64,000 nt of DNA from Schmidtea polychroa. Lineage: Eukaryota. The translations under genes and the position numbers were made by a program. Where the stretch lies: assembly GCA_044892525.1 (NCBI GenBank), contig CM097885.1, positions 15,316,001-15,380,000 of the forward strand, written 5' to 3'. Positions 37,041 through 53,054 of the stretch are shown here, piece by piece (the stretch's first letter is position 1; the number at the start of each line of letters is the position of its first letter). Under the pieces are notes generated by a model that saw nothing but the letters and a program-made list of their open reading frames with translations, was not told the DNA's origin and ran no database searches.

Positions 37041-37462
37041 AAATTCCCTATAATAACCATACCCAATGATCTGTATTAATACTATTCAAATATACTACCA
37101 GTCAAATCACCTATTTAAGATGAAAATTTATAATTAATAATTTTTCCCAGTTCCTGGTTGCAATATAAAAATGAAAAGGTAAAAATTTATCTTCCAATTT
37201 CCTTTACTCAGAATACAAGTTGTCAAATCATTTTAAATTTGCACGTATGAGTTACAATATCAAGATTATAATATACGAATCATTTTAACTTGACATGTAT
37301 AAATTACGATACCAGTACAATTACAAAGTAAGAACGAAAAGTTAAAGGAAAAATCATTTTCCAATTTCATTTATTCGAAATACAAATTTACTGGAGCAAT
37401 TTACACTTAATAACTTCTCTCTAAAGTCCAATTCCCCCAGTTATAGTTGATTGAAGGACACA

Positions 37463-38405
37463 AGTAGTGTGGTTATATACCCAACCAAAACAGCCCCCCA
37501 ACAAAAACATGCCTCCAAATCACTTAAGCTATTAGAAAAACAACCTAAAACTTATACTTTTATAGTATTTTAACCCTATATTTTGAAAACAACCACCCTT
37601 AATGACTCTAACTGTTTTAATCTTCAAAGCCTCAAACTCAATAGCTTCAAACTAAAAAGAGAATAGAAAAGAAAATGGCATTATGAAAAAGTTAGAGGGC
37701 TATTTGATCTTTATCAGATTATTGATTTTAAATTATATAAATTAAAAAATAAATGAAAAATAGTAAAACTGCTCTGAGGGGACAGTGGTATTTTTTTTTT
37801 TTTTTTTCACTGTCCCCTCAACAGTTTTTTTTGATCCGGATCATTTTTTTTATTTATCAACCTCTTTCGTTTATCGAATCTCTTCCAATATACAAGCTGG
37901 CCAGACTCATACATCAGAATCAATCCGATAATAGCAGCACACCTTATTATTCGCTTCTCGCTCGAATACGATTTCATCGGCGTTTTAAGTGTGCTGCTCG
38001 AAAGTACAAATGAATTCGAAAGCGAATTCGAAAGAGGTCCGAAAACAACTGAGAAATAAATGTGCACATTAAAGAATCGATCCGAGGGTGTTCGAAAGAC
38101 AGGTGGCGATAATTACCGGTTCGCCACCATCACCCGTTTCAATATTTTTTTTTTCATATTTATGTTTAAAAAATAATTAATTAATAAAAAAATAAAATAA
38201 AATAAAATAAATAAAATAAAATATACAAGTACTTTATAAATATAAGATACCCACACTATTTTCAATATTATTTTCAAATTTTTAATATTATTTTATTTTG
38301 AAAAAAAAACTAACCTCAGATGTGATTTGAACCGCTAGCATTTTGAACCACTGTGTCAGTCTAGCCCACTGCGCCATCAAGGTTTGGATTTTTTGTCATT
38401 TTTTA
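37463..38405 (+). repeat. Polinton left TIR
   Basis: Reverse complement of 51123-52054; the outer ~800 bp are near-identical, the inner ~130 bp diverged. Confidence 0.95.
38301..38385 (-). ncRNA. Putative Pol III tRNA-like unit (left-TIR copy)
   Basis: A box TGGCGCAGTGG (38376-38366), B box GGTTCAAATCA (38333-38323), T9 run (38309-38301). Confidence 0.5.
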
Positions 38406-38450
38406 AATTTTTATTATAAAAAATGAATAATATAAATCTTAAAAAATAAA

Positions 38451-41400
38451 ATGAAAACAGGGTATCCAATAAAAAATTTTTTTCTAAAAATGAATTGTAA
38501 TATTTGCAATAAAGTTTTTAAAAATAAAACTGGATTAATTTCTCACTTAAAATCGAAAGCTCATTTATTAAAAGAAAATAATCTTAATGATACAAATTCA
38601 AAAGTTTGTCCTAAATGTAAAGGAAGATTTCTACATTCTGGATATAATAAACATTTTGAAAATTGTATCGGGAAAAATAGAGAAATATTTACAAGTCCTC
38701 ATTGTAACTTTTCAACAAAACTAAATTTCTATTATTTAGAACATATAAAAGAATGTAAAAATAAAAAACAAAATTCTGACGATGAGGAATGTCATTCAGA
38801 AGGAGAGCCTGATCATGTTGAAAGAGAAAAATATAACTGGGATAATTTTAATCATATAGATGAATTTCAATTAAAAATTAATGGGCCTGCAACTCCTGGA
38901 GAATATATAAATAAAAATAAAAAAAATATTAAAAATTCTTTCACTGAAGCTTTAAAAAATTATAAACCGACAAGGTATAATGTTATAAAATATAAAATTA
39001 TAATCAAAGCAAAATACTGGCGAGGAGCAGAAGAAAAGACAACACCCTTAGATGTTGAAATTGGAATACCTTTTAAATATTTATTTTCAATTAAAGGATT
39101 TGATAAAACCATCAAAGAAATAATTAAAGCAGCAGAAGCAAAACAAGAGGAAGTAGAAAATGAATTAGGAGATTCAAACTTAGTATTCAACTCTTTCCAA
39201 ACTTTAGTGATTGATTATTGGAGAGGATTACCACCCAATCCTAAATCTTATATTCCTACACCCTTTAAATCTAAAAATGTTATAAATGTACAGAATAATG
39301 ATAACAAATGTTTCATCTGGTCAATACTTGCACATTTACATCCTCAAGCAACAAATCCCCAAAGAGTTTCAAAATACAAACAATATGAAAATGAATTAAT
39401 ATTTCCCAAAGGATTCAAACACCCAATGAAACTAGAAGACATTCCAGAATTTGAAAAATTAAATAATCTTAAACTTAATATTTATGAACATGTTATAGGG
39501 AAAGAAATTATTCCAATTTATATTTCAGATAGTGGAACCAAGGATAACGGAGCACAGGACAACGAGATATATCTTTTAATCTTGGAACAAGAAAATAATC
39601 AACATTATGTTTTAATAAAATACTTTCAAGCTTTTACATCTCCAGAGAATCCAACTAGTGGAGGAGGAACATGTAAAAGATGTCTTCATTATTCAACAAC
39701 TAAAAACTCTATGATTAAACATACAAGATTTTGTGAAAAAGATGATCCAGCTTTAATTAAAATGCCTAATAGTCCCAAGATGTATTTTAAAAACTTTTCA
39801 AATTTACTACAAACAGTTGGAGTTCTTTATGGTGACTTTGAATCTATAAACCATAAACAAGATTTGGTTTATCAATATTTAAAAATAATAGAAAAAAATA
39901 AACTCATGGATTTATGGAACTCCTCAGGAGAGAAGATGAAACCAGAGAGGATGAAAGCCTTTCTAAGAAAAAGAAATAAACCTAATAGTGTTAAAAAAAC
40001 TAAACAATTACCATCTGCTTATAAATTATTATTTAAAAGTAATTATCCTGAACTCATAGAATCTAGAGAATATTCAATTCTAGGAGGTACCCCTGAAGAA
40101 GTCTTGAATCATTTTACTAAAAATATAAATGATCTAGAACATGAAATATTTAAAATATTAAAAACAAAGTATCCTCAAAATATTTCTAATCAACAACAAC
40201 AAGAATATGAAAATACTTCCAACTGTTGGATGTGTAAACAGAATATTCTTCCTGATGAAAAAGTTATAGATCATGATCATTTAAAAAAGGAAAATAATTA
40301 TCGAGGAGCAGCTCATAAAAATTGCAATCTTAATTGCCATACTCCTAAATTTATACCTGTTATATTTCATAATCTTTTTGGATATGACATACATCTATTT
40401 ATTAAACATTTAGCAGCAAATGCTAAAAACTCTTTCAAAGTTATCGGCTTAACAAAGGAAAAATATAAATCAATTGAATATGGAAAATTAAAATTTATAG
40501 ACTCGTTAAACTTTCTCCAAATGTCTTTAGATGCAGTAGCAAAAACAATGAAACCAGAAAATTTTAAAATCACTCGAGAATTCTTGGAAAAAAATAATAT
40601 TCCTCTAGAAGAATATCCTACATGTTTAGCAAAAGGAATATATCCTTATGACTATGTTGACTCGTTTGAAAGATATAATGAAACAAGTCTTCCTAGCCAA
40701 GAAGATTTCTATTCACAACTTCAAAAAAATCATATTACAAATCAAGAATATTCTCGAGCAAATAAAATGTGGGAATTATTCAAGTGTAAAACTTTAGGAG
40801 AATATACAAGTATGTATTTATCCTTGGATGTTTATATTCTAGCAGATTGCTTTGAAGAATTTACAAACTCTTTTGTTCTTAAACCTTATAATTATATAAC
40901 TGCACCCTCTTTAGCTTGGGATACTATGTTATATACCATTTGGACTTCAAATATAGAAGATGCTGATAAAATTATAGATCTTTTAACTAACCTCGATATG
41001 TTTAACCAAATTAAAACAAACATTAGAGGAGGAGTCTCTTCAGTAATGGGGAATAGAGAAATAAAAGCTAGAAATGCAATAACTACTAGCCGAAGACTAT
41101 CTAAACACCCTGATGATCCATATATGAAAATTAACAATGAGGAATTAAAAGAATTATTAGAAACAATGAAAAATCCTATATTTATACTTTATATAGATGC
41201 AACAGCTTTATATTCAGGAATTATGACTCAATTTTTACTAATGGGTGATTTCACTGAAATAGAGAACCCAACAGATGACCTTATGAAAGAAATACTTTCA
41301 ACATCGAAAGATTCTCCAATAGGTTACTTTATAGAATGCAACCTCGACTATCCAGATGATATAAAATCAGGAACAAGATATTTTCCTTTAGCTCCCATAA

Positions 41401-42770
41401 GAAGAAAGATTGATATCAACGAACTTTCTGAATGGCAAATCTCACAAGATAAACCTCCAACAATGAAACTTCTTTGTGATCAAACAGATCGAAGGTTTTA
41501 TCTTTGTCACTATAGACTCCTCCAATTTTATCTCTCACGAGGAATGATATTAAAAAAAGTTCATAGTGTCATAAGATTTAAACAAGCTCCATTCATGAAA
41601 GCTTTTATCGAGGAGAACATTAGGTGTCGAAACATTGCAAAAAGAGAAGGTAATCTTTTTAAAGATAATAATTATAAAATTTTAAACAATTCAGTCTTTG
41701 GGAAGACAATGGAGAATGTTGATAAATATACTCATATTGAACTCCTAACTAATACTGCCAAAGATATTAAGCGTTATAATCGTATGCTAGGAAAGCCTAC
41801 ATTTATAAACGCACAAGTATTTTCTGAAAATCTTACTGCAGTAGAATTAAAAAATTATGAGAAAACATATAACAAACCAATATTTATAGGGTTTACAATT
41901 TTAGAACTTTCAAAATTACAAATGTATGAAACATATTATAACATCTTACAACCTATATACGGAGCAAATATATCAATGCATGCAATGGATACAGATTCAA
42001 TGTTTTTAACAATAAGAACTCATGATTTACAAAAAGATATGAAAGAAAATCCTATACTTTCAAATTTAATAAATTCATCTGGAGAACTATTTTCGTTTAA
42101 AGATGAAAAACCTTTTACTCCTATAGAAAATGGAATATTTATTCGTGCTAAACAATATTCATACGAAACATTTAGAAACCCTGAATTTATAACTAGATCA
42201 TTTATATTTAAAACTCCAGAAACAGAAGAAACCATTACACATAGATATCCTATATTTCCTAAAGAAGAAAAACCTGTAAAGGATAACAGATGTAAAAGAA
42301 TACAGAGAGTGGTTTCAAAGAATCTTTCTCATCAAGATTATATAGATACATTGAATCCAAATCATAAAGATAAAATTGATGAAATACATCAACTTAAAAG
42401 TGAAAACCATGATATTCACTTGATAGAATCTCAAAAAGTATCATTATCAAATTATGATGATAAGAGATTCATACTAAGTGATTTAAAGACAACTCTACCT
42501 ATTGGAAATAATTTAATCCCTATAATAAAAAATCTAGAAAAGTTGAATAAGTTATATGATACAAAGATTACTGATCTTGATATTTATAATGTTGAAATTA
42601 TTTATCCCAAGAGAGAAATCGAGAAGCCTTTATATTCTCAAGTTTTTAATCCTATATGTTTAGAACTTAAATATTTTAATACTGATCCTGAATATATAAA
42701 AGGTCTAAGTGATAAAGAATTTAAAGATCATAAATTAATGATTCAAAGGTTGGCTTTCAACCATAACTGA
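38451..42770 (+). CDS. Protein-primed family B DNA polymerase (pPolB) with N-terminal C2H2 zinc finger; likely start ATG at 38490
   Basis: Exonuclease motifs YGDFES and FHNLFGYDIH; C..C..DHDH..YRGAAH..CNL; KGIYPYDY; YIDATALY; KILNNSVFGKTMEN; MDTDS; YDDKRF. Confidence 0.97.
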   Translation: MKTGYPIKNFFLKMNCNICNKVFKNKTGLISHLKSKAHLLKENNLNDTNSKVCPKCKGRFLHSGYNKHFENCIGKNREIFTSPHCNFSTKLNFYYLEHIKECKNKKQNSDDEECHSEGEPDHVEREKYNWDNFNHIDEFQLKINGPATPGEYINKNKKNIKNSFTEALKNYKPTRYNVIKYKIIIKAKYWRGAEEKTTPLDVEIGIPFKYLFSIKGFDKTIKEIIKAAEAKQEEVENELGDSNLVFNSFQTLVIDYWRGLPPNPKSYIPTPFKSKNVINVQNNDNKCFIWSILAHLHPQATNPQRVSKYKQYENELIFPKGFKHPMKLEDIPEFEKLNNLKLNIYEHVIGKEIIPIYISDSGTKDNGAQDNEIYLLILEQENNQHYVLIKYFQAFTSPENPTSGGGTCKRCLHYSTTKNSMIKHTRFCEKDDPALIKMPNSPKMYFKNFSNLLQTVGVLYGDFESINHKQDLVYQYLKIIEKNKLMDLWNSSGEKMKPERMKAFLRKRNKPNSVKKTKQLPSAYKLLFKSNYPELIESREYSILGGTPEEVLNHFTKNINDLEHEIFKILKTKYPQNISNQQQQEYENTSNCWMCKQNILPDEKVIDHDHLKKENNYRGAAHKNCNLNCHTPKFIPVIFHNLFGYDIHLFIKHLAANAKNSFKVIGLTKEKYKSIEYGKLKFIDSLNFLQMSLDAVAKTMKPENFKITREFLEKNNIPLEEYPTCLAKGIYPYDYVDSFERYNETSLPSQEDFYSQLQKNHITNQEYSRANKMWELFKCKTLGEYTSMYLSLDVYILADCFEEFTNSFVLKPYNYITAPSLAWDTMLYTIWTSNIEDADKIIDLLTNLDMFNQIKTNIRGGVSSVMGNREIKARNAITTSRRLSKHPDDPYMKINNEELKELLETMKNPIFILYIDATALYSGIMTQFLLMGDFTEIENPTDDLMKEILSTSKDSPIGYFIECNLDYPDDIKSGTRYFPLAPIRRKIDINELSEWQISQDKPPTMKLLCDQTDRRFYLCHYRLLQFYLSRGMILKKVHSVIRFKQAPFMKAFIEENIRCRNIAKREGNLFKDNNYKILNNSVFGKTMENVDKYTHIELLTNTAKDIKRYNRMLGKPTFINAQVFSENLTAVELKNYEKTYNKPIFIGFTILELSKLQMYETYYNILQPIYGANISMHAMDTDSMFLTIRTHDLQKDMKENPILSNLINSSGELFSFKDEKPFTPIENGIFIRAKQYSYETFRNPEFITRSFIFKTPETEETITHRYPIFPKEEKPVKDNRCKRIQRVVSKNLSHQDYIDTLNPNHKDKIDEIHQLKSENHDIHLIESQKVSLSNYDDKRFILSDLKTTLPIGNNLIPIIKNLEKLNKLYDTKITDLDIYNVEIIYPKREIEKPLYSQVFNPICLELKYFNTDPEYIKGLSDKEFKDHKLMIQRLAFNHN

Positions 42771-42864
42771 AACCAACGATATTTAATTTTTTAATAATAA
42801 AATGTCGACAATTAATTTAAGCAACTATAGCAACCTGATCTACTTTTTTAAAAATACACCCATT

Positions 42865-43461
42865 TTATAAATAAGAATTCTTTAACCATTTTTCTCGAGA
42901 TGTTTTTTTATTACTTATAACATTAGCCACCATGCCCTCCCTTTTTAATCTTATAACCTCATTCTTTATATCTTGTATTATTTGATTTGATTTCATTATT
43001 TCATCATCAGTTAAGATTCCATCTTCCAAAGCTTTTAATTGAAATAAAAATAATTTAGAGATTCCTAATTCTATTGATAAACAAACTTCTCTATATAAAC
43101 TTTTCTTTTTAGAAGTATAAGATAATGAAACTATTTCAGTTAAGAAACCATCAGCCACAGAAATACTTCCAAGTATTACAGGTGCAAGAGTAACAACTGG
43201 TAAAGTTATGGGTAAAATAACTGTTAATATTGCAGATGCAAATCCTAAAGAATAACCTATAACTTTTAAAACTGTATTCCCTTTATTCCATCTATTTTTA
43301 ATTTTTTTATAATGCTTTAATAAATCTTGTAAATGTAAGGTTTCTGATTTAAATTCTTTTACTCTCATAATTTCAAGTTCTGTGGGAGCCGAGGCCTTGG
43401 AAGAATAATATCCTGATGATCTCAATTCTGGGTAAATTTTTTCTTCTCTTACTTCTTCCAT
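42865..43461 (-). CDS. Polinton hypothetical membrane protein with YPEL and ASAP motifs
   Basis: 198-aa ORF; AAAATG start context; basic helix followed by a long hydrophobic stretch (VLKVIGYSLGFASAILTVILPITLPVVTLAPVILGSI). Confidence 0.8.
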   Translation of the reverse strand: MEEVREEKIYPELRSSGYYSSKASAPTELEIMRVKEFKSETLHLQDLLKHYKKIKNRWNKGNTVLKVIGYSLGFASAILTVILPITLPVVTLAPVILGSISVADGFLTEIVSLSYTSKKKSLYREVCLSIELGISKLFLFQLKALEDGILTDDEIMKSNQIIQDIKNEVIRLKREGMVANVISNKKTSREKWLKNSYL

Positions 43462-43469
43462 TTTAATAA

Positions 43470-44480
43470 TTAAAAAAATAAGACTTTATTCTTCTGAGCA
43501 TCATCTGGCACCAATACTCGGATATCAAAAGAAACTCTTGTTGAGAGGATATCTTTATACAATTCTCTCAATGCTTTACGAACTTCATCAACATCAACCT
43601 TTTTTTCATAAAATATTAAATCTATATATTGTACAAGTGAACTAGAAAAATGAATATTCTTACTTTTAACTTTATGTAGTCCATGTGAATGAGTATTAAC
43701 ATACCAATCTCCGTGTGGTAAATCATAACTAGTCATTATAACATCACCCTTTTCAAGCTTACTATTATAATCACATTTCACAAACCATTTCATTCTTTCA
43801 TTATCATCATCAAACAAAAAGAAATAAGGATCAATAATTTTTACAACCATAAAAACACCCCATTCTTTACTGTTTGTTGTTATTAAACTTGGTTCTATAA
43901 AATGTTTATATGTATGGGGTAATAATGTTTTATTCTGTTCTAATTCAGCAGCTCTTTTTCTAATACTATGTGTGGTGTTAATGTGTGTTCCATGAGACTC
44001 TAAATTTGAAATTCTTTTATTAAATGATGTAATCATCTCATTTATTATTTTATATATTGTATTAAATTTAGTATTCATAATTTGTTTATCTTTAGAATTT
44101 AATATAGCAGTATTTAACTTTACAACTTGTTCAGTTAACAGACTTTGTAACTTGTCAAATTTATCATTAAATCGTTGTTCGATATTATTAAGCTTTGATT
44201 CCATTGAATCAATTTTTGTTGTTAATGAACTTTCAATTCTTGTTGTTGTTAAATCAGTATATTTTTTAACACCATCTACATATTTCTTATTAACTGCATC
44301 AGCTTCATCAGTTGGAAAAGATAATTCTTTTATCTTGTGTCCATTTAAAATTAAATCACCCTTCATTGAATCACCTCTTTCATTAATATATTTATTTTCT
44401 GTTAAAGTTAATATTTCTTCTGTATTAAACCCTGTTTTTATTGTTCCACCACCTCTATTACATGGAATATAAGAACTCAT
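43470..44480 (-). CDS. Fibre/spike-like protein
   Basis: GDSMKGDLILNGHKIKELSFPTDEADAVNKKYVD fibre-type motif, long coiled-coil, globular C-terminus; adjacent to mCP. Confidence 0.7.
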   Translation of the reverse strand: MSSYIPCNRGGGTIKTGFNTEEILTLTENKYINERGDSMKGDLILNGHKIKELSFPTDEADAVNKKYVDGVKKYTDLTTTRIESSLTTKIDSMESKLNNIEQRFNDKFDKLQSLLTEQVVKLNTAILNSKDKQIMNTKFNTIYKIINEMITSFNKRISNLESHGTHINTTHSIRKRAAELEQNKTLLPHTYKHFIEPSLITTNSKEWGVFMVVKIIDPYFFLFDDDNERMKWFVKCDYNSKLEKGDVIMTSYDLPHGDWYVNTHSHGLHKVKSKNIHFSSSLVQYIDLIFYEKKVDVDEVRKALRELYKDILSTRVSFDIRVLVPDDAQKNKVLFF

Positions 44481-44504
44481 TTATTAATAATATAAAATGA
44501 ATCT

Positions 44505-45269
44505 TCAAACCTGTTCCAAATGTAAATACATTGAAATCTCTTCTCCATTAAAATCAATCAATTCTCCTTCTTGATTAAGAATTTTAAAATTAATATCCAT
44601 TATATATTTTCTACATAAAGGTAAATAATTTGGAGGATTCATTCTTTCAACTATTTTATATCCCATAGGAACTGTGTTTGAGGGAAAGGAATATAAAACA
44701 TTTGTTTGTTTACCATTATTATAAGAACCTGTTATACAATCGCAATGAATATTTATTGTGTTTGTATTTATTATTTTTATAATATGTTCTGATGTTATTA
44801 TTTTATCTTCTTTTATTGTTATATCCATAGGTTTAAATCCTAAAACTGTGTGAAAGAAACAATTATCTAAAAAACTAATTTTTATATTCTTCAAAGTCAT
44901 TACACATTTTGAAGTTGGTATATCCATTTTAATTTTAATACCTTCATTTGTTTTTTTAGAAAGTATATCATTTAAATCTTTTATCTCATATGCCCCAGGT
45001 TCTATTGTTATAATTTCTGGTTTATGCCCATCACGAGTTTGAATAGTAAATTTATTATTATCTTTAGTTATATTAAAAATAGTATTATAAGCACAAAACC
45101 ATAATAGCCCCAATTCATAATTTAAATTTTGATCTAATTTAATTGAATCTTGAAAGTTTATAGTAAAGTCTGATTCTTTTGAATTTATAGATAAAGTTCT
45201 TGAATATTTATCTGACATTATGTTTACCATTTTTTTTAAATTATCTTCCGGAGGGTTGTGAAGCTCCAT
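44505..45269 (-). CDS. Minor capsid protein (penton, single jelly-roll)
   Basis: IEPGAYEIKDLN, INIHCDCITGSYNNG..NVLYSF, YLPL, ILNQEGELIDFNGE. Confidence 0.88.
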   Translation of the reverse strand: MELHNPPEDNLKKMVNIMSDKYSRTLSINSKESDFTINFQDSIKLDQNLNYELGLLWFCAYNTIFNITKDNNKFTIQTRDGHKPEIITIEPGAYEIKDLNDILSKKTNEGIKIKMDIPTSKCVMTLKNIKISFLDNCFFHTVLGFKPMDITIKEDKIITSEHIIKIINTNTINIHCDCITGSYNNGKQTNVLYSFPSNTVPMGYKIVERMNPPNYLPLCRKYIMDINFKILNQEGELIDFNGEEISMYLHLEQV

Positions 45270-45317
45270 TTCTTTAGTAGTAAATTCATATAGTAAAAAT
45301 CCTTATAGTAAAAATCC

Positions 45318-45782
45318 TTATAGTAGAGATTCTAGATCATTAAAAATTTCTTGAATTATAGATTCAAAATCCTGCGTATGCCCCTTTCCCTCTCCCTTAT
45401 TCAATCTATACAAAACATATAAACTTAAAATACCACATATTTTAGTATTCAAAGGTTGAACTTGTAAAGAGTTAAAAGTATAACCATTTGGGGAATCAAT
45501 CGGAGAACCCGTCAAGAGATAATCTTCAACTTCTTTAGTAGGTTTAATCCCAAAAGAATCAAAGTAGATAGATTTCTTATATATACAAACCCAATGAGAT
45601 CCTTTTTCATTTGAATTTTGATAATTGATTATTATATTCAGGGGACTCTCCAGACTTGATAATTCATCATTCATTAATATTTTAATTTTTAAATTTAAAT
45701 AATTTGCATAATCTTTTAAATCAAAATTTGTTTTTGCATTTATTCCAAATGTTTTTAAAAAATCTAATATTGAAGGAGTCAT
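45318..45782 (-). CDS. Adenain-like cysteine maturation protease
   Basis: GSHWVC, YFDSFG, QVQ...ICG (His-Asp-Gln-Cys catalytic order). Confidence 0.93.
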   Translation of the reverse strand: MTPSILDFLKTFGINAKTNFDLKDYANYLNLKIKILMNDELSSLESPLNIIINYQNSNEKGSHWVCIYKKSIYFDSFGIKPTKEVEDYLLTGSPIDSPNGYTFNSLQVQPLNTKICGILSLYVLYRLNKGEGKGHTQDFESIIQEIFNDLESLL

Positions 45783-45804
45783 TTTGTATTTTAAAACTTC
45801 GTAT

Positions 45805-46698
45805 TTATAACTTCGTATACTTATTAAATTTATCTTTTGAAATTATTCCTTGTTTTAACAAATCTTTAGAAATCTTTAAAATATCAGAATCTAAATTATT
45901 ATGTCCTGCTTTCCTTGCAGCTAATAGTTTTCTTAATTCAATAAAAAGATTGATGGGATTTGGTTTACCACCTTCACTAATTAATCCCTCTCCCTCTGTA
46001 ACAACATAACCCTTTTCATTTTTATTTAAATAATTCTTTAAATCTTGAATATATTTTGCTTTAGAACTAGCTCTTATTAATTTTATTAAATTTAAATATT
46101 TTTTAATTTCTTCAACATCATCTGAAGAATATCCACAAAGTAATCTATAAAAATCATCTGTAAATTCAAAGTCTAAATATTCATTATTATAAACATTTTG
46201 TGAATGAATACGTGATTTATTTTCTGAATTTGAATATAAAGTAAAGTTTTGTTTATTAATTGTTATTATTTGATATCCTTCAGTATTAGTATTAAATGTG
46301 GGTCTAATTGAAGGAGGTAAATCATCTCTAATTTTAGGATCAACTTTAAGAGCTTTTGTTTTTAAAAACATTTCTTCTTCTTCCACATTAGAAATTCTTC
46401 TGCGTTTTCTTTGATTTCTTTCAGAATGACTTTCAGGATGGTTTTCACTGGATTCTTTTTCTTTATCCTGCCACTCTAGTTCTTTTATTTTTTGTTTTTT
46501 ATCTTCTAACTCTTTAAATTTTGCTTGCTCATTGAAATCTTCCAACTCTTTTATAGCTTTAATTGTTGGCCCCTGTTGTTGTGTTATTACCTCATTTAAT
46601 ATTATAGATTCAGCATGTTGAGTTGTATCTTTTTTATTATATTTATCTTGTTCTGATTGTAATTTTTTTAAAAGTGCTAATCTTTCTTCATATACCAT
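45805..46698 (-). CDS. Conserved Polinton protein of unknown function (possible core protein)
   Basis: C-terminal GEGL..PINLFIELRKLLAARKAGHN..I..I..DL...GII resembles a motif recurrent in Polinton proteins; NLS-like QRKRRR. Confidence 0.8.
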   Translation of the reverse strand: MVYEERLALLKKLQSEQDKYNKKDTTQHAESIILNEVITQQQGPTIKAIKELEDFNEQAKFKELEDKKQKIKELEWQDKEKESSENHPESHSERNQRKRRRISNVEEEEMFLKTKALKVDPKIRDDLPPSIRPTFNTNTEGYQIITINKQNFTLYSNSENKSRIHSQNVYNNEYLDFEFTDDFYRLLCGYSSDDVEEIKKYLNLIKLIRASSKAKYIQDLKNYLNKNEKGYVVTEGEGLISEGGKPNPINLFIELRKLLAARKAGHNNLDSDILKISKDLLKQGIISKDKFNKYTKL

Positions 46699-46720
46699 TT
46701 TAATGGTATCAAAAATGGTA

Positions 46721-47299
46721 TCATAGTTCGAAGGGCTTCAAGTATAATCCTTTACCATTTTTAGTTTTACAAAGGCATCCATTCTTTAAAGATTTACATA
46801 TTTTTTTTAAATCTTCTTTATCTTTCGAAGATAAAGATTCAGATGTAGAAATTTGATTTTTTAAAAAATCATTTAAACCTCTACCTTTATAAGGATCAAG
46901 ATAGAGACCTTTGCCCTGAGACTTTTGCCGACTCCCCTCATATGGATTAAGATAGAGACCCTTTCCAACGGACACTCCCCCTTTAGCTTGCCCTACCTTC
47001 TTCATTGAATCGATTTCAGTTTGTAGTTTTTCTTTTTCTAGGTCTGTCTTTTGAGATTCTTTAGCTTTTTGAACTGTAGTTGCAATTCCTCCAGCTATTC
47101 CAGCAGCACCTGATAAACCAGCAATGATTGCAGGTATTAAAGCAGCTAATGGAAGAATGCCACCTTCTTTAGCTTCGTGGAGCTTCGCTCTAACTTGTTC
47201 TTTTACATGTTTTCCAATAAAATATTTTTTACCATCAATTACTACTGATTTATTTTTATTTGAATTTATTAATTCTTGCAAAGATTCTTCAGTTGTCAT
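46721..47299 (-). CDS. Adenovirus pX/mu-like virion core or membrane-active precursor
   Basis: EGGILPLAALIPAIIAGLSGAAGIA resembles adenovirus pX GGILPLLIPLIAAAIGA; repeated GKGLYL motifs. Confidence 0.8.
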   Translation of the reverse strand: MTTEESLQELINSNKNKSVVIDGKKYFIGKHVKEQVRAKLHEAKEGGILPLAALIPAIIAGLSGAAGIAGGIATTVQKAKESQKTDLEKEKLQTEIDSMKKVGQAKGGVSVGKGLYLNPYEGSRQKSQGKGLYLDPYKGRGLNDFLKNQISTSESLSSKDKEDLKKICKSLKNGCLCKTKNGKGLYLKPFEL

Positions 47300-48106
47300 T
47301 TTATAATAAACAAAATGGATATTTGGAAACCAATTTTAAATAGACATAAGAGTAAATTTAATAATAAAGTATTTCCTGATAATTTTAGATTATTAATTGT
47401 TGGTTCTTCTGGATGTGGAAAGAATGTACTTGTTTTGAGAATGTTACTTGAAGATGATTTTTTAGATTATAATAATTTAATCTTTTATTCTACAACCATA
47501 AATCAACCAGAATTACAACTTTTGAAATGTGGATTTGAAAATAAATTAACTAAAAAACCAATAATTGATATTTTTAAAAATCAACATAGGTGTCCTGAAG
47601 AAGTTTTTCAACCTTGTGATATGGTTGATTGGTATAAGGAAAAGATTTTAGAATCAGATATTAGTAATAAAAATGATTATATTTGTGAAGAAGGGCAGGA
47701 GGCAATTCAAGTTTTATTCTCTAATAAACCTGAAGATGTTTTACATTGTGATTTACTTCCTAAAGATAAAAAGAATCTAGTTATATTTGATGATGTTGTC
47801 AACATGAAAAATCAAGAGATTCAAAAGAGTTACTTTACACGAGGTCGACATAATAATTGTAATGTTATTTATATATCTCAAACATATTATGCTTTAGATA
47901 AAAATTCAATAAGAAATAATTCCAATTGTTTTATATTTTTTAAATTAGATCGCCGTGATAAGAATATGATTTATAATGATTTATTTTCAAATGTTGAACC
48001 TGATAAGAATATGTTTGATATGTTTGTTGATAATCATTGGAAAGAAAAATATAATTATATTTATTTGGATAGAGAAGAAGCTGAAATATGGAAAAGTTTG
48101 TTTTAG
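47276..48106 (+). CDS. A32/FtsK-like DNA packaging ATPase; likely start ATG at 47315
   Basis: Walker A GSSGCGKN, Walker B LVIFDD, RGRHNN, YISQ, IRNN. Confidence 0.93.
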   Translation: MQRFFSCHFIINKMDIWKPILNRHKSKFNNKVFPDNFRLLIVGSSGCGKNVLVLRMLLEDDFLDYNNLIFYSTTINQPELQLLKCGFENKLTKKPIIDIFKNQHRCPEEVFQPCDMVDWYKEKILESDISNKNDYICEEGQEAIQVLFSNKPEDVLHCDLLPKDKKNLVIFDDVVNMKNQEIQKSYFTRGRHNNCNVIYISQTYYALDKNSIRNNSNCFIFFKLDRRDKNMIYNDLFSNVEPDKNMFDMFVDNHWKEKYNYIYLDREEAEIWKSLF

Positions 48107-48117
48107 GGCTTGTCGAC

Positions 48118-49041
48118 TTAAAAATCTGTTTTCTGTAGTTCATTATTATAAAATCTACCTAATATTTTTTCATTATTTAAATCAAAGATGGTATATGTTA
48201 TTGGAGTTGTATGATGTATTTTATTTATAATAAAAATTTCATTTGTCCATTTTGCTGTGAATCCTTTTTCAAATTTATTTTTATATTTAAATATTCTTAC
48301 TCGGTCACCAATTTTAAACTTTGGTTTTTCAATAACATCATTTTCAATATTTACCACTTTAATGGTTTCAGGCTTCATGGAAGCATTTAGAGGTGTTAAT
48401 TTTATAGAACTATGTACATCATTATTATGTTCATTTACAATCTTTTGTAACAATTCATTGTTCCATTTTTGTTTTCCAATAGCAGTAAAATATTTCCACA
48501 TTTTATTTTTTAATGTTCTATTTAATCTTTCAACTACGACTGCTTTTCCTTCGTTTTCTGTTGAATATAATTTAATATCATTTTCATTTAAAAACTTTGT
48601 AAAAACTTTGTTATAAAATTCTGTTCCTTTATCACACCATAAATATTTTGGGATTCTTTGATTTTCTTCAAATATATTTTCAAATGCTTCTGTAATAGAA
48701 TATCCTGTTTTATTTTCTAAACATCTTGCAAAAGCAAATCTTGTATATAAATCTATTACAGTTAAAATTATTATTAGATTATTATTTTCATCTAATCTAA
48801 TATCTAGACGTGTTCCTGGTCCAGTATAGTTGTGTTTAAATAAATGTCTTTCACCTGGATATTTTTCTGTAGTAAAAGGTTTTAATATTGAAGATGTTGT
48901 TTTTAAAGATTGCAAATCGCCTCCAGCTCGTGGAATTAGATCACCTCCTGTATGTTTTTTAGTTTTTAAATGACTTGCTTTATGATGTCTTGTAACTTGA
49001 CAATTACAACTTTCACATCTCCAATATTTATTTAGAGACAT
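48118..49041 (-). CDS. Chimeric ORF: zinc finger + PLA2-like N-terminus fused to a retroviral-type (rve) integrase lacking its first catalytic Asp
   Basis: CESC..H..H; HNYTGPGTRLDIRL; ILTVIDLYTRFAFA, LWCDKGTEF, VVERLNRTLK, KFKIGDRVRI, FYNNELQK. Confidence 0.88.
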   Translation of the reverse strand: MSLNKYWRCESCNCQVTRHHKASHLKTKKHTGGDLIPRAGGDLQSLKTTSSILKPFTTEKYPGERHLFKHNYTGPGTRLDIRLDENNNLIIILTVIDLYTRFAFARCLENKTGYSITEAFENIFEENQRIPKYLWCDKGTEFYNKVFTKFLNENDIKLYSTENEGKAVVVERLNRTLKNKMWKYFTAIGKQKWNNELLQKIVNEHNNDVHSSIKLTPLNASMKPETIKVVNIENDVIEKPKFKIGDRVRIFKYKNKFEKGFTAKWTNEIFIINKIHHTTPITYTIFDLNNEKILGRFYNNELQKTDF

Positions 49042-49070
49042 TTTAAAATGTTAAAATATCAGGGATTATA

Positions 49071-50363
49071 TCAAGAATCTCCCCTAACATTTTCAATTAT
49101 TGAAATCTTTCCACCATATAATTTCATTTCTATTTTCTTTTCTTCTAATATTAATGTATATACTTTAGCTTTAAAATTAGAATCCTTTGTTACATGAAGT
49201 GTAACATCAACATTATTTATGGCTAGGCGATCATCTTGGTCTGAAACATTTATACAAAATATAGAATATAAATTTTTGAAATCTTCTAAACTTAATTGCG
49301 GTTCAACTTTGAAATCATAACATGTTTCAATATAATTTAGATATGGGAATATGTTTTCATTATTTTCAATATTAAATTCCATTCTATTTATTGGATAATA
49401 AGAACTATTTAATTGAATTTGGATTGTTTTTAAATTATCAACTCCAATCTTTTGAATAAACAAGTTGTTATTTTTTTGGAAAGATGAATCTACTTCTTTG
49501 AATCCAATCAAGATATATCTTGGTCGGTATGCTAAATTTGCTACCTTTATAGAATATGTTGAACCCTCTGTCATACTAAATTCACTACAGATTCTATTTA
49601 AATAATTTACATTTATAGACTTGTTGGAATTTAATCTTTCAAGGAGTTTAATCTCAGAATGTGGGTTTAATGTCCATTCAGGTATATGTAATTCAAGTGT
49701 TGATAATTTTAATTTAGCTTTTGTATCTACAGCTCCATAGAACAATTTTTTATCACCTTCTACTCTATTACAGATGAATTCTATAAAAACATTATGAAGT
49801 ATACGATTATAGTTTTGAAGGAATCCAAACAAGTGTTTTAATTCAAAATAACCTTCAAATTTTTTAGATTTATAAAGTTCAGCTCTTTTATGGTAACCAT
49901 GGTTTACATCTAAACCATCTTTATCTAAATCCCCTTTATTAACATCAGGAATCCAACCTGTTAATTCACCATATTCGTTTTTATAATCACAACCAGTCAA
50001 AATAAAATTTAACATTGTAGAATATACTCCCGGATGCAAAACAGTTTCAATTTCTGATGATCCTAGTTTTAATCTCATGTTGGAGAATAAATTTGGAAAG
50101 AAATTATTTTCTAGGGTTATATCTTTGTTTGCTTCAATTTCTAATTCGATTTTATAATATAATTTGGCATTACAAATATCTATAGGGTTTGATGTTTGAA
50201 GAGATTGAAAAACTATATCACCCCTACGATTTAAGTTTGCAATCGATCCTGACGTAGGGGATATTTTAAGTACATCATTTTTCTTGATTTCATGAGTAAA
50301 TTCTTTATTATAATCAAGATTTAATTTATTTTTTTCTTGAATTTTAAGATTTATATTATTCAT
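49071..50363 (-). CDS. Major capsid protein (hexon-like double jelly-roll)
   Basis: 430 aa; NNFFPNLFSNMRLKLGSSEIE, LKHLFGFLQNYNRIL, RPRYILIGF, LNSSYYP, FKNLYSIFCINVS; position within the Polinton. Confidence 0.88.
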   Translation of the reverse strand: MNNINLKIQEKNKLNLDYNKEFTHEIKKNDVLKISPTSGSIANLNRRGDIVFQSLQTSNPIDICNAKLYYKIELEIEANKDITLENNFFPNLFSNMRLKLGSSEIETVLHPGVYSTMLNFILTGCDYKNEYGELTGWIPDVNKGDLDKDGLDVNHGYHKRAELYKSKKFEGYFELKHLFGFLQNYNRILHNVFIEFICNRVEGDKKLFYGAVDTKAKLKLSTLELHIPEWTLNPHSEIKLLERLNSNKSINVNYLNRICSEFSMTEGSTYSIKVANLAYRPRYILIGFKEVDSSFQKNNNLFIQKIGVDNLKTIQIQLNSSYYPINRMEFNIENNENIFPYLNYIETCYDFKVEPQLSLEDFKNLYSIFCINVSDQDDRLAINNVDVTLHVTKDSNFKAKVYTLILEEKKIEMKLYGGKISIIENVRGDS

Positions 50364-50419
50364 TTTTATATATTAAAATTTACACACACACAATAGGATT
50401 AATTAAATATATTTTGTAA

Positions 50420-50501
50420 GTCATTATAGCGGAGTGGGAATAGGCTTCAATTTTATCACCGGGAGTACCGGGTTCAATTTTCGATTTTGGTCAATTTTTT
50501 T
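50420..50501 (+). ncRNA. Putative Pol III tRNA-like unit 1 (degenerate)
   Basis: A box TAGCGGAGTGG at 50427, B-like GGTTCAATTTT at 50471, GGTCA then T7. Confidence 0.4.
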
Positions 50502-50653
50502 CGATATTTTTTTTCAACGGAATCTGATTCAGCGTACTGATTTTAGTATATATTTAAATTTTCAGATGGATCTGAGTGGTAGTTGTCGAGAAAATGAATA
50601 ATTAATTATCAATTTCATCAATAAATAGTCACACATTAACAACTTATTTTATA

Positions 50654-50735
50654 TTGAGTATAGCTTAGTGGTAATAGCACTCGACTGCATTGCCAATACC
50701 AATGGGTTCAAATCCCATTTCGGTCATTTTATTTT
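50654..50735 (+). ncRNA. Putative Pol III tRNA-Cys-like unit 2
   Basis: GTATAGCTTAGTGGTAATAGCACTCGACTGCA resembles the tRNA-Cys 5' half; perfect T-arm AATGGG-TTCAAAT-CCCATT; TTTT terminator; acceptor and anticodon stems do not pair. Confidence 0.6.
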
Positions 50736-50896
50736 CAAATTTTTTTTAACGAAATATTGATCAGCATACTCGATTTAGTACTTGTACAAATTTTTAATGA
50801 GATTGGTCAACGGCAACTCTTGGAAATTTAAGATCAAAAACGTTTTAACTTAAGCTACCAAAAATTAATATATCCAATAAAAAAATATTTATAAAA

Positions 50897-51166
50897 ATGG
50901 ATGAGTTAAAAGAAAGAATGAGAAATGAATTGAATGAAGTTAAACATAAGAGAATGAAAAGAAGAGAAGAAGAACCATTAGAATACATCAAAGAGTTGAT
51001 GGTAGATAATGAAAAGTATCGACATTTTTATATGAAGGCTGTAGATGTTGCTGATATAAGATTGAAGAAAATGAAACAATTACAGGAAAGAGTTAAAGAA
51101 CTTGAATCGATTATTTATAGTCTAAAAAATGACAAAAATCCAATCCTAGATAGCGCAGTGGGCTAG
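50897..51166 (+). CDS. Small charged coiled-coil Polinton protein (89 aa)
   Basis: AAAAATG context; upstream TATCCAATAAAAAA motif shared with pPolB. Confidence 0.65.
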   Translation: MDELKERMRNELNEVKHKRMKRREEEPLEYIKELMVDNEKYRHFYMKAVDVADIRLKKMKQLQERVKELESIIYSLKNDKNPILDSAVG

Positions 51167-52054
51167 ACCGGCACAGTGGTTCAAATGGATAGCGGTTCAA
51201 ATCCTAACTGTGGTTAGTTTTTTTTTCAACATAAAATAATATTAAAAATTTGAAAATAATAGTGTGGGTATCTTATATTTATAAAGTACTTGTATATTTT
51301 ATTTTATTTATTTTATTTTATTTTATTTTTTTATTAATTAATTATTTTTTAAACATAAATATGAAAAAAAAATATTGAAACGGGTGATGGTGGCGAACCG
51401 GTAATTATCGTCACCTGTCTTTTGAACACCCCCGGATCGATTCTTTAATGTGCACATTTATTTCTCAGTTGTTTTCGGACCTCTTTCGAATTCGCTTTCG
51501 AATTCATTTGTACTTTCGAGCAGCACACTTAAAACGCCGATGAAATCGTATTCGAGCGAGAAGCGAATAATAAGGTGTGCTGCTATTATCGGATTGATTC
51601 TGATGTATGAGTCTGGCCAGCTTGTATATTGGAAGAGATTCGATAAACGAAAGAGGTTGATAAATAAAAAAAATGATCCGGATCAAAAAAAACTGTTGAG
51701 GGGACAGTGAAAAAAAAAAAAAAAAATACCACTGTCCCCTCAGAGCAGTTTTACTATTTTTCATTTATTTTTTAATTTATATAATTTAAAATCAATAATC
51801 TGATAAAGATCAAATAGCCCTCTAACTTTTTCATAATGCCATTTTCTTTTCTATTCTCTTTTTAGTTTGAAGCTTTTGAGTTTGAGGCTTTAAAGATTAA
51901 AACAGTTAGAGTCATTAAGGGTGGTTGTTTTCAAAATATAGGGTTAAAATACTATAAAAGTATAAGTTTTAGGTTGTTTTTCTAATAGCTTAAGTGATTT
52001 GGAGGCATGTTTTTGTTGGGGGGCTGTTTTGGTTGGGTATATAACCACACTACT
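51123..52054 (-). repeat. Polinton right TIR
   Basis: Mirror of the left TIR (paired coordinates sum to 89517 in the outer part). Confidence 0.95.
51144..51226 (+). ncRNA. Putative Pol III tRNA-like unit 3 (right-TIR copy)
   Basis: A box TAGCGCAGTGG at 51151, B box GGTTCAAATCC at 51194, CTAAC/GTTAG hairpin then T9. Confidence 0.55.
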
Positions 52055-53054
52055 GACACAGAAGGTCCAGTTTACATTTGTCCGGTTAGTTTAGATTCCC
52101 TTCTAACCATCGGTATCAAAGTAACATCTTCCAAAGGTTGATATGTGCATATCTTCTACGACGGTTTGTCCGGATAAATCTTCTTGAACTACGATCGGCT
52201 GAAAACAACACATAAAGGTAAATAATAGGAGATCGGTTCAATTACCTGAAATCTTAATGGTAGCAAATGTTCATTAACCATGGACACATAAACAAAATTT
52301 TTTAAAGTTAAAACATTCTCTCAATCTAAAGGTTTATAATAAATGAATAATTTTAAACAAACAGTAAAGTTAAAGCATTCTCTCAATTTAAAGGTTTATC
52401 GTAAATGAATAATTTTAAAGAAACAGAAAAGGAAAATTAATAATGAGAATATAATTATCGAAAATGGTGATCAACGTGATATCTTAAATAAAAATTGTAG
52501 TAATCTATAATGAAAAATTTTAGAATGTCGAATTTGAGTGATCAGAGTGAAGCAGATCAATGCGAGATGACGAATGCACGCCTCCTCTCCAGGCACATTT
52601 GGCACCACATTCACCGATGGAGCCAGGGACGAGACCTGGATTGTTCGAATTGGGTGATCAGGGAAGGCCCCGAGACAAATGCCCGGTGTGGGTGAAGACC
52701 GAGCCGGATAACAATTGGCTCGTCGAGGCCCGAGATCGCACCATGGGGCTTAGATCCGTGCCGTCAGAGCCGGTCGGCCAATAGAGGAGGTAGAAATGGA
52801 GCCGACACCAGCGAAAAAACGGGGCCGACCCCGCAAGAAGGCCCCCCGAAACTGAAATCTCGACGATCTCAGGGAACTGTCTCACATTTTGTTTTGATTT
52901 TATTGATTTTTCGCGACCCCTGACTAACATTTTACTTAATAAACGTCTTGTTTTCTTTTGTTTTGTTTCGTTAATCTGGGTGTTATAATCTTAATAATCG
53001 ACTTTACGGAAAATTATAATCACCCGTAGAACCTTAGGGTTATATCCCTCTCAG

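What the first reader, a model, noticed from the sequence alone, without database searches (positions are those of the whole stretch)
50420..51226. Cluster of tRNA-like Pol III genes inside a Polinton: candidate VA-RNA-like viral small RNAs
Seen: three same-strand units lie between the MCP start and the inner end of the right TIR. A boxes are TAGCGGAGTGG (50427), TAGCTTAGTGG (50661) and TAGCGCAGTGG (51151). B boxes are GGTTCAATTTT (50471), GGTTCAAATCC (50705) and GGTTCAAATCC (51194). A-to-B spacing is 44/44/43 nt, as in tRNA genes, and each has GGTYA 17-18 nt after the B-box start followed by an oligo-T run. The sequence between the boxes differs among units, so the promoter and terminator architecture is what is conserved. 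None folds as a full cloverleaf. Established: adenoviruses, which share pPolB, protease and jelly-roll capsids with Polintons, express Pol III VA RNAs from type-2 internal promoters to counter PKR and RNAi. Inference: this element may encode ~75-85-nt Pol III RNAs acting as RNAi/piRNA decoys or tRNA mimics, or may use TFIIIC sites as insulators. I am not aware of this being a described Polinton feature.
Basis: partly seen in the sequence, partly recalled or inferred. Interest (0 to 1): 0.9.

Follow-up and report, generated by a model that had tools for sequence, protein, structure and literature searches.

The report
Decayed tRNA-type mini-genes in a Maverick
A young, very abundant virus-like Maverick/Polinton transposon in an animal genome carries up to four worn-out tRNA genes that have lost the tRNA fold but kept the start and stop signals of small-RNA genes, so they may still be switched on, though no RNA data could show it.

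Summary
The composite motif occurs 4 times in the window and 0 times in 500 shuffles.

Corrections:
- Unit 3 lies inside the right TIR (51134-52054).
- A fourth, mirrored unit lies in the left TIR (38383-38301, minus strand).

The units are decayed tRNA genes. Only U2 touches the Rfam tRNA model, at 26.7 bits against a cut-off of 29; a sister variant reaches 32.4. ARAGORN finds none, and U1 and U3 fold no better than shuffles.

They are fixed parts of the element, not a copy-specific SINE. Whole-genome exact counts are 1,909 (U1), 1,347 (U2) and 2,954 (U3-type). Subfamilies carry one to four units, and a U3-type unit beside the capsid-gene start is near-universal.

Among 18 U3 variants, the boxes and T-run vary less than the rest (3/27 against 27/60 columns, p=0.0015).

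Sampled relatives lack the units: 37 metagenome loci and 80 kb of divergent Mavericks in the same genome.

A VA-RNA-like structure is not supported. tRNA genes in polinton-like viruses are already described. Expression is untested.

Best reading: tRNA-derived Pol III units kept for their promoter and terminator, probably acting in cis.

The parts
37463..52054 (.). Complete Polinton/Maverick copy (14,592 bp) flanked by the 6-bp target-site duplication GACACA
   Evidence: TIRs; termini and duplication; pPolB, rve integrase and DJR capsid protein
37463..38393 (.). Left terminal inverted repeat; its inner end holds unit U3L
   Evidence: Three collinear inverted-repeat segments of 99%, 92% and 89% complementarity
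51134..52054 (.). Right terminal inverted repeat; its inner end holds unit U3R
50420..50501 (+). U1. A box 50427-50437; degenerate B box GGTTCAATTTT 50471-50481; GGTCA 50489-50493; T7 50495-50501. By hand in tRNA register: acceptor 5/7, T stem 4/5, D stem 2/4, anticodon stem 2/5 pairs.
   Evidence: no Rfam or ARAGORN call; fold z +0.47; 1,909 exact copies of its 26-nt 5' core in the genome
50654..50735 (+). U2, the most tRNA-like unit. A box 50661-50671; B box 50705-50715; intact T arm ATGGG/CCCAT; GGTCA 50722-50726; T-run interrupted in this copy only.
   Evidence: Rfam tRNA 26.7 bits, with acceptor and anticodon stems broken; sister variant with a 9-bp insert scores 32.4 bits; fold z -2.25; 1,347 exact copies of its 26-nt core
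51144..51226 (+). U3R. A box 51151-51161, which forms the last codons and stop of ORF89; inner B-like box 51178-51188; B box 51194-51204; GGTTA 51212-51216; T9 51218-51226.
   Evidence: fold z +0.98; 2,954 U3-type units in the genome
38301..38383 (-). U3L, the mirror copy of U3 in the left TIR, about 75 nt upstream of and divergent from the pPolB start. A box TGGCGCAGTGG 38376-38366; B box GGTTCAAATCA 38333-38323; T9 38309-38301.
   Evidence: fold z +0.72
50502..50653 (+). Spacer after U1, homologous to the spacer after U2. U1 and U2 are tandem duplicates with a 234-nt period.
   Evidence: Local alignment z 5.2 against shuffles, 49 of 67 aligned columns identical; direct repeats
50897..51166 (+). 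ORF89, an 89-aa lysine/glutamate-rich ORF between U2 and U3. It is present in some subfamilies and absent in others.
   Evidence: Translation; lowest divergence among 19 copies, 0.0023 mismatches per site; no Pfam family; absent in L071, L073 and L076
49071..50363 (-). Major capsid protein gene. Its start codon lies 64 nt from the U1 A box, in divergent orientation.
   Evidence: PF21738, E 5e-26
38451..42770 (+). Protein-primed DNA polymerase B gene, preceded by a copy of the capsid-gene promoter and start region
   Evidence: PF03175; inverted repeat 38393-38457 / 50329-50393

Best explanation
The units are tRNA-derived RNA polymerase III mini-genes that form an integral part of this Maverick family. 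An ancestor carried a tRNA-type gene next to the capsid-gene promoter. The ~225-235-bp segment holding it was duplicated repeatedly: U1/U2 in this subfamily, and double U3 units in others. In the long-TIR subfamily it was copied to the polymerase end when the TIR spread inwards.

tRNA function has been lost, because the acceptor and anticodon stems are broken. The A box, the B box, their spacing and a T-run at the tRNA 3' end are retained.

Inferred: TFIIIC, TFIIIB and Pol III still assemble on the units and make unstructured RNAs of about 75-85 nt. The property kept by selection is recruitment of the Pol III machinery beside the capsid and polymerase promoters, in the manner of a tDNA-type open-chromatin or barrier element that resists silencing or read-through. 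The RNA product itself is not the selected property.
For: Shown:
- The architecture matches tRNA-gene geometry and is far beyond chance: 4 matches against 0 in 500 shuffles.
- tRNA ancestry: U2 scores 26.7 bits, and 32.4 in the insert variant, on Rfam tRNA, with the D and T arms intact and the acceptor and anticodon stems broken.
- Host tRNA genes terminate in T6-T8 a few nt after the 3' end, like the units.
- The units are part of the element. All 19 region-anchored copies carry the whole MCP-to-terminus context, and the flanks retrieved for 17 of them show at least 15 different insertion sites.
- Exact whole-genome counts are 1,909 (U1), 1,347 (U2) and 2,954 (U3-type), with 0 for the reversed-pattern controls.
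- Only 2 (U2) and 8 (U3) copies sit in another 5' context.
- A U3-type unit lies beside the capsid-gene start in 11 of 12 MCP-anchored loci.
- Among 18 distinct U3 variants, 3 of 27 box and T-run columns vary against 27 of 60 other columns (Fisher one-sided p=0.0015). The one A-box change (TAGC/TGGC) stays within the TRGC consensus.
- A more divergent subfamily (L094) keeps an A box, a B box and a T8 around a different interior. Its second unit has a different but still tRNA-type A box, TGGCTCAGTTGG.
- The RNA bodies show no stable or conserved fold and no complementarity to the element. This fits selection on the DNA signals rather than on the RNA.
- 13 outward-facing pairs (- then +, 10.4-13.8 kb apart) occur among the first 88 unit-bearing ends, against 0 inward-facing pairs.

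From the literature: tDNAs and TFIIIC sites act as chromatin barriers (PMC2040200 and PMC3395662, search listing and abstracts only).
Against: - No transcript, TFIIIC or Pol III occupancy data exist here.
- Copies within the family are 98-99% identical, so retention of the boxes among them says nothing about selection. Private mutations hit boxes at about the neutral rate: 1 of 25 U1 and 1 of 25 U2 A boxes are broken.
- The 18 variants are related by descent and gene conversion, and were extracted with a pattern that required boxes. The p-value is therefore optimistic.
- The invariant inner stretch CACAGTGGTTCAAA is not explained by promoter selection.
- The bracket layout is not universal. 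Two short-TIR elements lack a left-end unit, and 62 of the first 88 unit-bearing ends are unpaired.
- No unit was found in sampled relatives: 0 of 37 metagenome loci by pattern and ARAGORN, 0 tRNA-like Rfam hits in 19 of them covering 66.6 kb, and 0 in 80 kb of divergent Mavericks in the same genome. There is thus no deep conservation.
- U1's B box lacks the terminal CC.
Confidence: 0.4

Rival explanations
1. Neutral relics. One or more host tRNA genes were captured and duplicated by an ancestor of this family and are simply decaying. The boxes persist because they are the most conserved parts of any tRNA gene and the family is young. The units do nothing for the element.
For: - The stems are decayed, and ARAGORN and Rfam give no calls for U1 and U3.
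- Unit number varies freely, from 1 to 4, among apparently successful subfamilies. U1 and U2 are absent in 6 of 12 MCP-anchored loci, whose capsid genes are still open.
- Sampled relatives have no such units.
- Within-family box mutations occur at about the background rate.
Against: - In every unit type the decay has hit the stems but spared the 9 specified A-box positions in 4 of 4 units, and 7-9 of the 9 specified B-box positions.
- U1 and U2 interiors show no similarity above shuffles, while their spacers remain about 73% identical.
- Boxes and T-run vary less than the rest among the U3 variants.
- L094 has replaced interiors but still has A, B and T signals.
- Every unit keeps a T-run of 4 or more at the tRNA 3' end.
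Confidence: 0.3
2. The RNA products are the point: virus-encoded Pol III small RNAs acting like adenovirus VA RNAs or gammaherpesvirus tRNA-like RNAs, as decoys for RNAi/piRNA factors, La, RNase P/Z or other host factors.
For: - The Pol III gene architecture is complete.
- Several paralogous units have different interiors, as would be expected if different RNAs are made.
- There is precedent for clustered tRNA-like Pol III genes at one end of a dsDNA virus genome, the MHV68 TMERs (PMC4337559, search listing and abstract only).
Against: - No stable fold for U1, U3R and U3L (z +0.47 to +0.98), and no conserved structure among the 18 variants.
- The length is about half that of VA RNA (length recalled).
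- No Rfam viral RNA family matched at E<=10.
- No complementarity to element genes above chance.
- The units are dispensable in half of the MCP-anchored copies, for U1 and U2.
Confidence: 0.17
3. A host tRNA-derived SINE that happened to insert into the master copy.
For: A tRNA-like head with A and B boxes is what SINE heads look like. U1 and U2 share about 70 nt of downstream sequence.
Against: - A T7-T9 terminator follows each head directly, so no SINE body could be transcribed.
- Genome-wide, only 2 of 1,349 U2 cores lie in another immediate 5' context, and the reduced 19-nt U3 core gave only 8 such matches.
- The segment varies by deletion and duplication at fixed junctions inside the element. 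It shows no SINE-like insertion with target duplications.
Confidence: 0.03
4. Working tRNA genes that supplement the host pool for the element's codon usage, as proposed for tRNAs of polinton-like viruses and phages.
For: tRNA genes are known in polinton-like viruses and virophages (PMC12220804, passages read). A U2 variant passes the Rfam tRNA cut-off at 32.4 bits.
Against: - The anticodon stem has 2 of 5 pairs and the acceptor 2-5 of 7 (by hand).
- ARAGORN finds nothing at default or 95% thresholds.
- U1 and U3 are not recognised as tRNA at all.
Confidence: 0.02

Closest known systems
tRNA genes carried by polinton-like viruses, virophages and MELD viruses (PMC12220804; PMC8502044, figure 6 legend)
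   Same: tRNA-type genes sit inside elements of the Polinton/PLV realm, presumably captured from hosts.
   Different: Those are called as genuine tRNAs by ARAGORN or Rfam and are interpreted as codon compensation. The units here have lost the cloverleaf and keep only promoter and terminator. They occur in an animal Maverick, in up to four copies per element, partly inside the TIRs, and in several thousand copies per genome.
Murine gammaherpesvirus 68 tRNA-like genes (TMERs/vtRNAs) (PMC4337559, listing and abstract; details recalled)
   Same: A cluster of same-strand, tRNA-like, non-decoding Pol III genes lies near one end of a dsDNA virus genome.
   Different: TMERs link the tRNA-like part to pre-miRNA hairpins before the terminator (recalled). 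Here the T-run follows the tRNA-like part at once, and no cloverleaf-like fold is predicted.
Adenovirus VA RNA I/II
   Same: Both use an internal type-2 (A box, B box) Pol III promoter in a virus related to Polintons by its polymerase, protease and capsid.
   Different: VA RNAs are about 160 nt and highly structured, and that structure is the basis of PKR binding (recalled). These units are about 75-85 nt with no significant fold and gave no Rfam viral RNA match at E<=10.
tDNA and extra-TFIIIC chromatin barriers (PMC2040200, PMC3395662; listing and abstracts)
   Same: Consensus B boxes are present. The units sit at the edges of the gene block next to Pol II promoters, and in the long-TIR subfamily they bracket all genes. 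What is retained is the DNA signal rather than the RNA.
   Different: No occupancy or barrier assay exists here. Many copies carry a unit at one end only.
tRNA-derived SINE heads and BC1/ID-type RNAs
   Same: A tRNA-derived sequence has lost the cloverleaf but keeps the A and B boxes.
   Different: The units are not independent retroposons. They move only as part of a DNA element and have terminators directly after the head.

Membership tests
tRNA gene (Rfam RF00005 / ARAGORN) | Scores at or above the family's gathering cut-off (29 bits) | tested here: not met
   In the window, U2 scores 26.7 bits and U1 and U3 give no hit at E<=10. A sister U2 variant with a 9-bp insert reaches 32.4 bits.
tRNA gene (Rfam RF00005 / ARAGORN) | Cloverleaf with paired acceptor and anticodon stems | tested here: not met
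   ARAGORN finds 0 at default and 95% thresholds. The cmscan alignment marks non-pairs in the acceptor and anticodon stems of U2.
Type-2 RNA polymerase III gene | A box TRGCNNAGTGG and B box GGTTCRANNCC (consensus recalled) on one strand, 30-60 nt apart | tested here: met
   The A box matches 9 of 9 specified positions in all four units. The B box matches 9/9 in U2 and U3R, 8/9 in U3L and 7/9 in U1. Start-to-start spacing is 44/44/43/43.
Type-2 RNA polymerase III gene | Oligo-T terminator just after the RNA 3' end | tested here: met
   T7, T4+T4 (T8 in most of the 19 sister copies), T9 and T9. Host tRNA genes end the same way.
Type-2 RNA polymerase III gene | Transcription by Pol III / TFIIIC binding | not testable with these tools
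   Only assembled contigs of runs whose RNA nature is a guess were available.
Adenovirus VA RNA-like viral decoy RNA | About 160-nt RNA with a stable, conserved imperfect stem structure | tested here: not met
   The predicted RNAs are 75-85 nt. Fold z-scores are +0.47, -2.25, +0.98 and +0.72. Consensus folding energy of the 18 variants is -5.9. No Rfam hit other than tRNA and chance-level matches.
tRNA-derived SINE | Dispersed as an independent unit in many genomic contexts | tested here: not met
   Only 2 of 1,349 U2 cores lie in another immediate 5' context, and the reduced 19-nt U3 core gave only 8 such matches. All 31 sister loci examined place the units inside the element.
tRNA-derived SINE | Head, body and tail transcribed as one Pol III unit | tested here: not met
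   A T-run of 7-9 follows 0-2 nt after the tRNA-like 3' end.
MHV68 TMER-type gene | tRNA-like part followed by pre-miRNA hairpins before the terminator (feature recalled) | tested here: not met
   The terminator directly follows each unit. The only strong hairpin (51689-51752) lies about 460 nt beyond the T9 of U3R.
tDNA / ETC chromatin boundary | B box bound by TFIIIC, with barrier activity | not testable with these tools
   B boxes are present. Bracketing pairs are seen in 13 elements among the first 88 unit-bearing ends. No chromatin data are available.
Polinton/Maverick element (host of the units) | pPolB, rve integrase, DJR capsid protein, TIRs and a 6-bp target duplication | tested here: met

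The most novel reading that the evidence does not exclude
An animal Maverick/Polinton family encodes its own RNA polymerase III transcription units. These are tRNA genes stripped down to promoter and terminator, multiplied to as many as four per element and partly built into the TIRs. They give this genome at least about 6,200 extra TFIIIC/Pol III sites. The element uses them either to keep its capsid and polymerase promoters open and insulated against host silencing, or to flood the cell with small tRNA-like RNAs. Either use would be the first such device described for a Polinton.
Probability: 0.3. Interest if true: 0.8.

Novelty: new variant of a known kind. Interest (0 to 1): 0.55.

Why it matters
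How Mavericks/Polintons are expressed, and how they escape silencing while reaching thousands of near-identical copies, is unknown.

This family offers a concrete, testable handle. It carries small Pol III-type units beside the two key promoters, and natural subfamilies carry 1, 2, 3 or 4 units. One small-RNA library and one TFIIIC or Pol III ChIP in this animal would show whether a DNA transposon/virus has recruited the Pol III machinery.

If the units are active, several thousand extra TFIIIC sites would also matter for the host's chromatin organisation and Pol III budget.

If they are silent, the case documents how readily Polintons capture and carry Pol III gene fragments. A 7SL fragment sits in another element of the same genome.

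Tried and rejected
- RNA evidence. The look-up of sequencing runs listed no holder on record as RNA. I laid three runs guessed to be RNA and one DNA-like run on the whole element. All are assembled contigs, which cannot show starts, ends, strand or level, and short RNAs are lost. Nothing can be concluded about expression of the units.
- Depth in run X2. Contig depth was much higher over the TIR bins than over the genes. The tool states that such depths cannot rank parts, so I do not use it.
- Deep conservation. Relatives of the capsid protein (25-52% identity) in 37 metagenome loci have no A/B units and no ARAGORN tRNA. Nineteen of them (66.6 kb) have no tRNA-like Rfam hit. Their gene order differs and their termini are not sampled, so absence at the ends is not shown. 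Viral contigs gave no relative.
- Closer lineages. Searching the genome with capsid proteins 73% and 56% identical to the window's returned only this same family. The closer relatives P0002 and P0003 could not be placed on DNA.
- Source tRNA. I fetched 11 host tRNA genes (Lys-TTT, Arg-TCG, Gln-TTG arrays). None resembles a unit beyond the boxes. By eye and from memory U2 looked tRNA-Cys-like; this was not tested.
- A 9-nt match between the element's terminus and the sequence upstream of host tRNA-Lys proved to be chance. There is no matching inverted end and no other similarity.
- Integration near tRNA genes. No tRNA or A/B motif occurs in 11.6 kb of flanks of 17 copies, or elsewhere in the window.
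- Antisense or guide idea. The longest complementarity of the units to the element is 9-11 nt, equal to the shuffles.
- Acceptor-stem covariation in U3 variants. The 5' leader and 3' trailer pair partly in most variants, but the registers differ and I could not show compensatory change (by eye).
- Literature. Four searches found no paper describing Pol III or tRNA-like units in Polinton/Maverick TIRs; listings only were examined: Polinton + tRNA-like, Polinton + polymerase III, Maverick + Polinton + tRNA genes, adintovirus + small RNA.
Full report
**The observation.**
- A boxes lie at 50427, 50661 and 51151.
- B boxes lie at 50471, 50705 and 51194.
- Spacings are 44/44/43.
- GGTCA/GGTCA/GGTTA lie 18/17/18 nt after the B-box start, each followed by a T-run.
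- A composite pattern (A box, 28-40 nt, GGTTCRA, 10-20 nt, TTTT) occurs four times in the 64-kb window and never in 500 dinucleotide-preserving shuffles. All four A-box matches in the window belong to these units.
- ARAGORN finds no tRNA in the window and Rfam finds nothing at gathering score.

**The host element.** The surrounding element is a genuine, intact Polinton/Maverick.
- It encodes pPolB (38451-42770), an rve integrase (48118-49041) and a double-jelly-roll capsid protein (49071-50363).
- Its terminal inverted repeats are 37463-38393 and 51134-52054.
- It has AGT...ACT termini and a 6-bp target duplication GACACA.

**Two corrections.** Unit 3 (51144-51226) lies inside the right TIR, not inboard of it. 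Its mirror image therefore exists on the minus strand of the left TIR (38383-38301), about 75 nt upstream of the polymerase start. This copy of the element thus has four units. The two U3 copies point outward and bracket all protein genes.

**What the units are.** They are decayed tRNA genes.
- With permissive thresholds only U2 matches the Rfam tRNA model, at 26.7 bits against a cut-off of 29. Its D and T arms are intact and its acceptor and anticodon stems are broken.
- In sister copies with a 9-bp insert just before the A box, the same unit reaches 32.4 bits. ARAGORN still rejects it at default and 95% thresholds.
- Reading U1 by hand in tRNA register gives acceptor 5/7, T stem 4/5, D stem 2/4 and anticodon stem 2/5 pairs.
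- As free RNAs, U1, U3R and U3L fold no better than shuffled sequence (z +0.47, +0.98, +0.72). U2 folds modestly better (z -2.25).
- The host's genuine tRNA genes (Lys, Arg and Gln arrays) end in T6-T8 a few nt after the 3' end. The T-runs after the units are therefore what a Pol III terminator looks like in this genome.

**Do they belong to the element?** Yes.
- All 19 other copies found with this region carry the whole context from the capsid gene to the terminus at 52054. This sample is biased, because the region itself was the query.
- The flanks retrieved for 17 of them show at least 15 different insertion sites.
- Exact whole-genome pattern counts are 1,909 for the U1 core, 1,347 for the U2 core and 2,954 for U3-type units. 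Reversed-pattern controls gave 0.
- Only 2 U2 cores and 8 U3 cores have a different base immediately upstream. There is therefore no separate dispersed SINE family with these heads.

**Subfamily structure.** Twelve loci were anchored on the capsid gene instead of on the units. They show a modular region between the capsid promoter and the terminus.
- Six loci (L072-L077) have U1 and U2.
- Six loci (L066-L071) join position 50380/50381 directly to 50861 or to about 51124, and so lack U1 and U2.
- Two loci (L073, L076) lack ORF89.
- Two loci (L068, L070) carry two tandem U3 units.
- Eleven of the twelve have at least one U3-type unit next to the capsid-gene start. L069 has a small insertion there with element-like termini.
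- In two short-TIR elements the left end has no unit. The left-end copy therefore arose when the long TIR spread inwards.
- Among the first 100 U3-type units listed on contig 1, there are 88 unit-bearing ends. Twelve are tandem doubles. There are 13 outward-facing pairs 10.4-13.8 kb apart, 62 unpaired ends, and no inward-facing pairs.

**Evidence that the signals are maintained.**
- U1 and U2 are tandem duplicates. Their spacers align at z 5.2 with 49 of 67 columns identical, but their interiors show no similarity above shuffles.
- By eye, U1 and some U3 variants share AGTGGGAATAGRC and a doubled TTCAA motif. The paralogues therefore differ mainly by indels and local replacement.
- Across 18 distinct U3 variants, 3 of 27 columns in the A box, B box and T-run vary, against 27 of 60 elsewhere (Fisher one-sided p=0.0015). 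The A-box change keeps the TRGC consensus.
- A more divergent subfamily (L094, about 83-86% identical) has one unit with the same leader and boxes around a different interior. It has a second unit whose A box has become TGGCTCAGTTGG, which is still tRNA-type.
- Caveats apply. The variants are not independent, and they were extracted with a box-requiring pattern, although homology-based retrieval found an A box in 33 of 33 places. Private mutations within the young family hit boxes at about the background rate.

**Evidence against an RNA-level (VA-like) role.**
- The 18 variants share no convincing structure (alifold -5.9).
- No Rfam viral RNA family matched at E<=10.
- The units show no complementarity to the element beyond chance.

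**Evidence against deep conservation.**
- 0 of 37 metagenome loci encoding related capsid proteins carry such units.
- 0 tRNA-like Rfam hits occur in 19 of them.
- 0 units occur in 80 kb holding very divergent Mavericks of the same genome.
- In the metagenome relatives the gene order differs and the ends are not sampled.

**Interpretation.** I commit to the following reading: these are tRNA-derived Pol III mini-genes retained for promoter and terminator.
- Their most likely role is cis-acting recruitment of TFIIIC and Pol III next to the capsid and polymerase promoters, in the manner of a tDNA barrier or open-chromatin element (confidence 0.4). The identity part is much firmer than the functional part.
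- The main rival is neutral decay of captured tRNA genes (0.3).
- tRNA genes in polinton-like viruses, virophages and MELD viruses are already in print (PMC12220804, passages read; PMC8502044, figure legend read). The kind is therefore known.
- What is new is the stripped-down form, the TIR location and the multiplicity in an animal Maverick. My four literature searches found no description of that.

**Expression.** It remains untested, because only contigs of runs of uncertain type were available.

Noticed in passing
window 51689-51752 (mirrored at about 37765-37828 in the left TIR): A strong GC-rich hairpin with an A17 loop sits in the outer TIR: -39.4 kcal/mol for 51650-51790, z -7.1. It gives weak below-threshold matches to several miRNA-precursor families on both strands.
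   Followed up: partly
window 38393-38457 versus 50329-50393: The region just upstream of the polymerase gene is a diverged inverted copy (75%) of the capsid-gene promoter and first codons. It leaves a short remnant reading frame (MNNINLKK, then stop) before the polymerase ATG. The promoter, U3 and TIR seem to have been copied to the left end as one block.
   Followed up: partly
window 50897-51166: ORF89 is a lysine/glutamate-rich 89-aa ORF with no Pfam family. It is the least variable segment among 19 copies (0.0023 mismatches per site), yet it is absent from some subfamilies. Its last codons are the A box of U3.
   Followed up: partly
L091 749-1060, L092 958-1201, L069 (reverse complement) about 2850-3080: Short-TIR subfamilies end in a ~315-bp terminal unit bounded by AGTAGTG...CACTACT. 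A ~230-bp MITE-like insertion with similar termini replaces the unit region in L069.
   Followed up: no
L094 (G000:C1:13107450-13108000): A more divergent subfamily carries two units after the capsid-gene start. One has a different interior between the same boxes. The other has the A box TGGCTCAGTTGG.
   Followed up: partly
That stretch has no nucleotide similarity to the present element.
   Followed up: partly
G000:C4:76.658-76.669 Mb; contigs C474, C333, C140: The host tRNA genes that scored best lie in long tandem arrays: tRNA-Lys(TTT) every 424 bp and tRNA-Arg(TCG) every 278 bp. One Arg-array member reads as Gln(TTG) through a single anticodon change.
   Followed up: no
L031 3810-3889: A metagenomic relative of this element has a hairpin that matches the mir-754 precursor model at 48.6 bits (cut-off 84).
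   Followed up: no
window 28994-29860: An ORF with a piggyBac-type transposase domain (PF13843, E 7e-21) lies outside the Maverick.
   Followed up: no
window 37400-38381 and 51148-52100, run X2: In one run guessed to be RNA, summed contig depth over the TIR bins (1,276-2,512) far exceeds most gene bins (0-400). The DNA-like run X4 shows no such excess. The tool warns that contig depth cannot rank parts, so this is only a prompt to look at raw reads.
   Followed up: no
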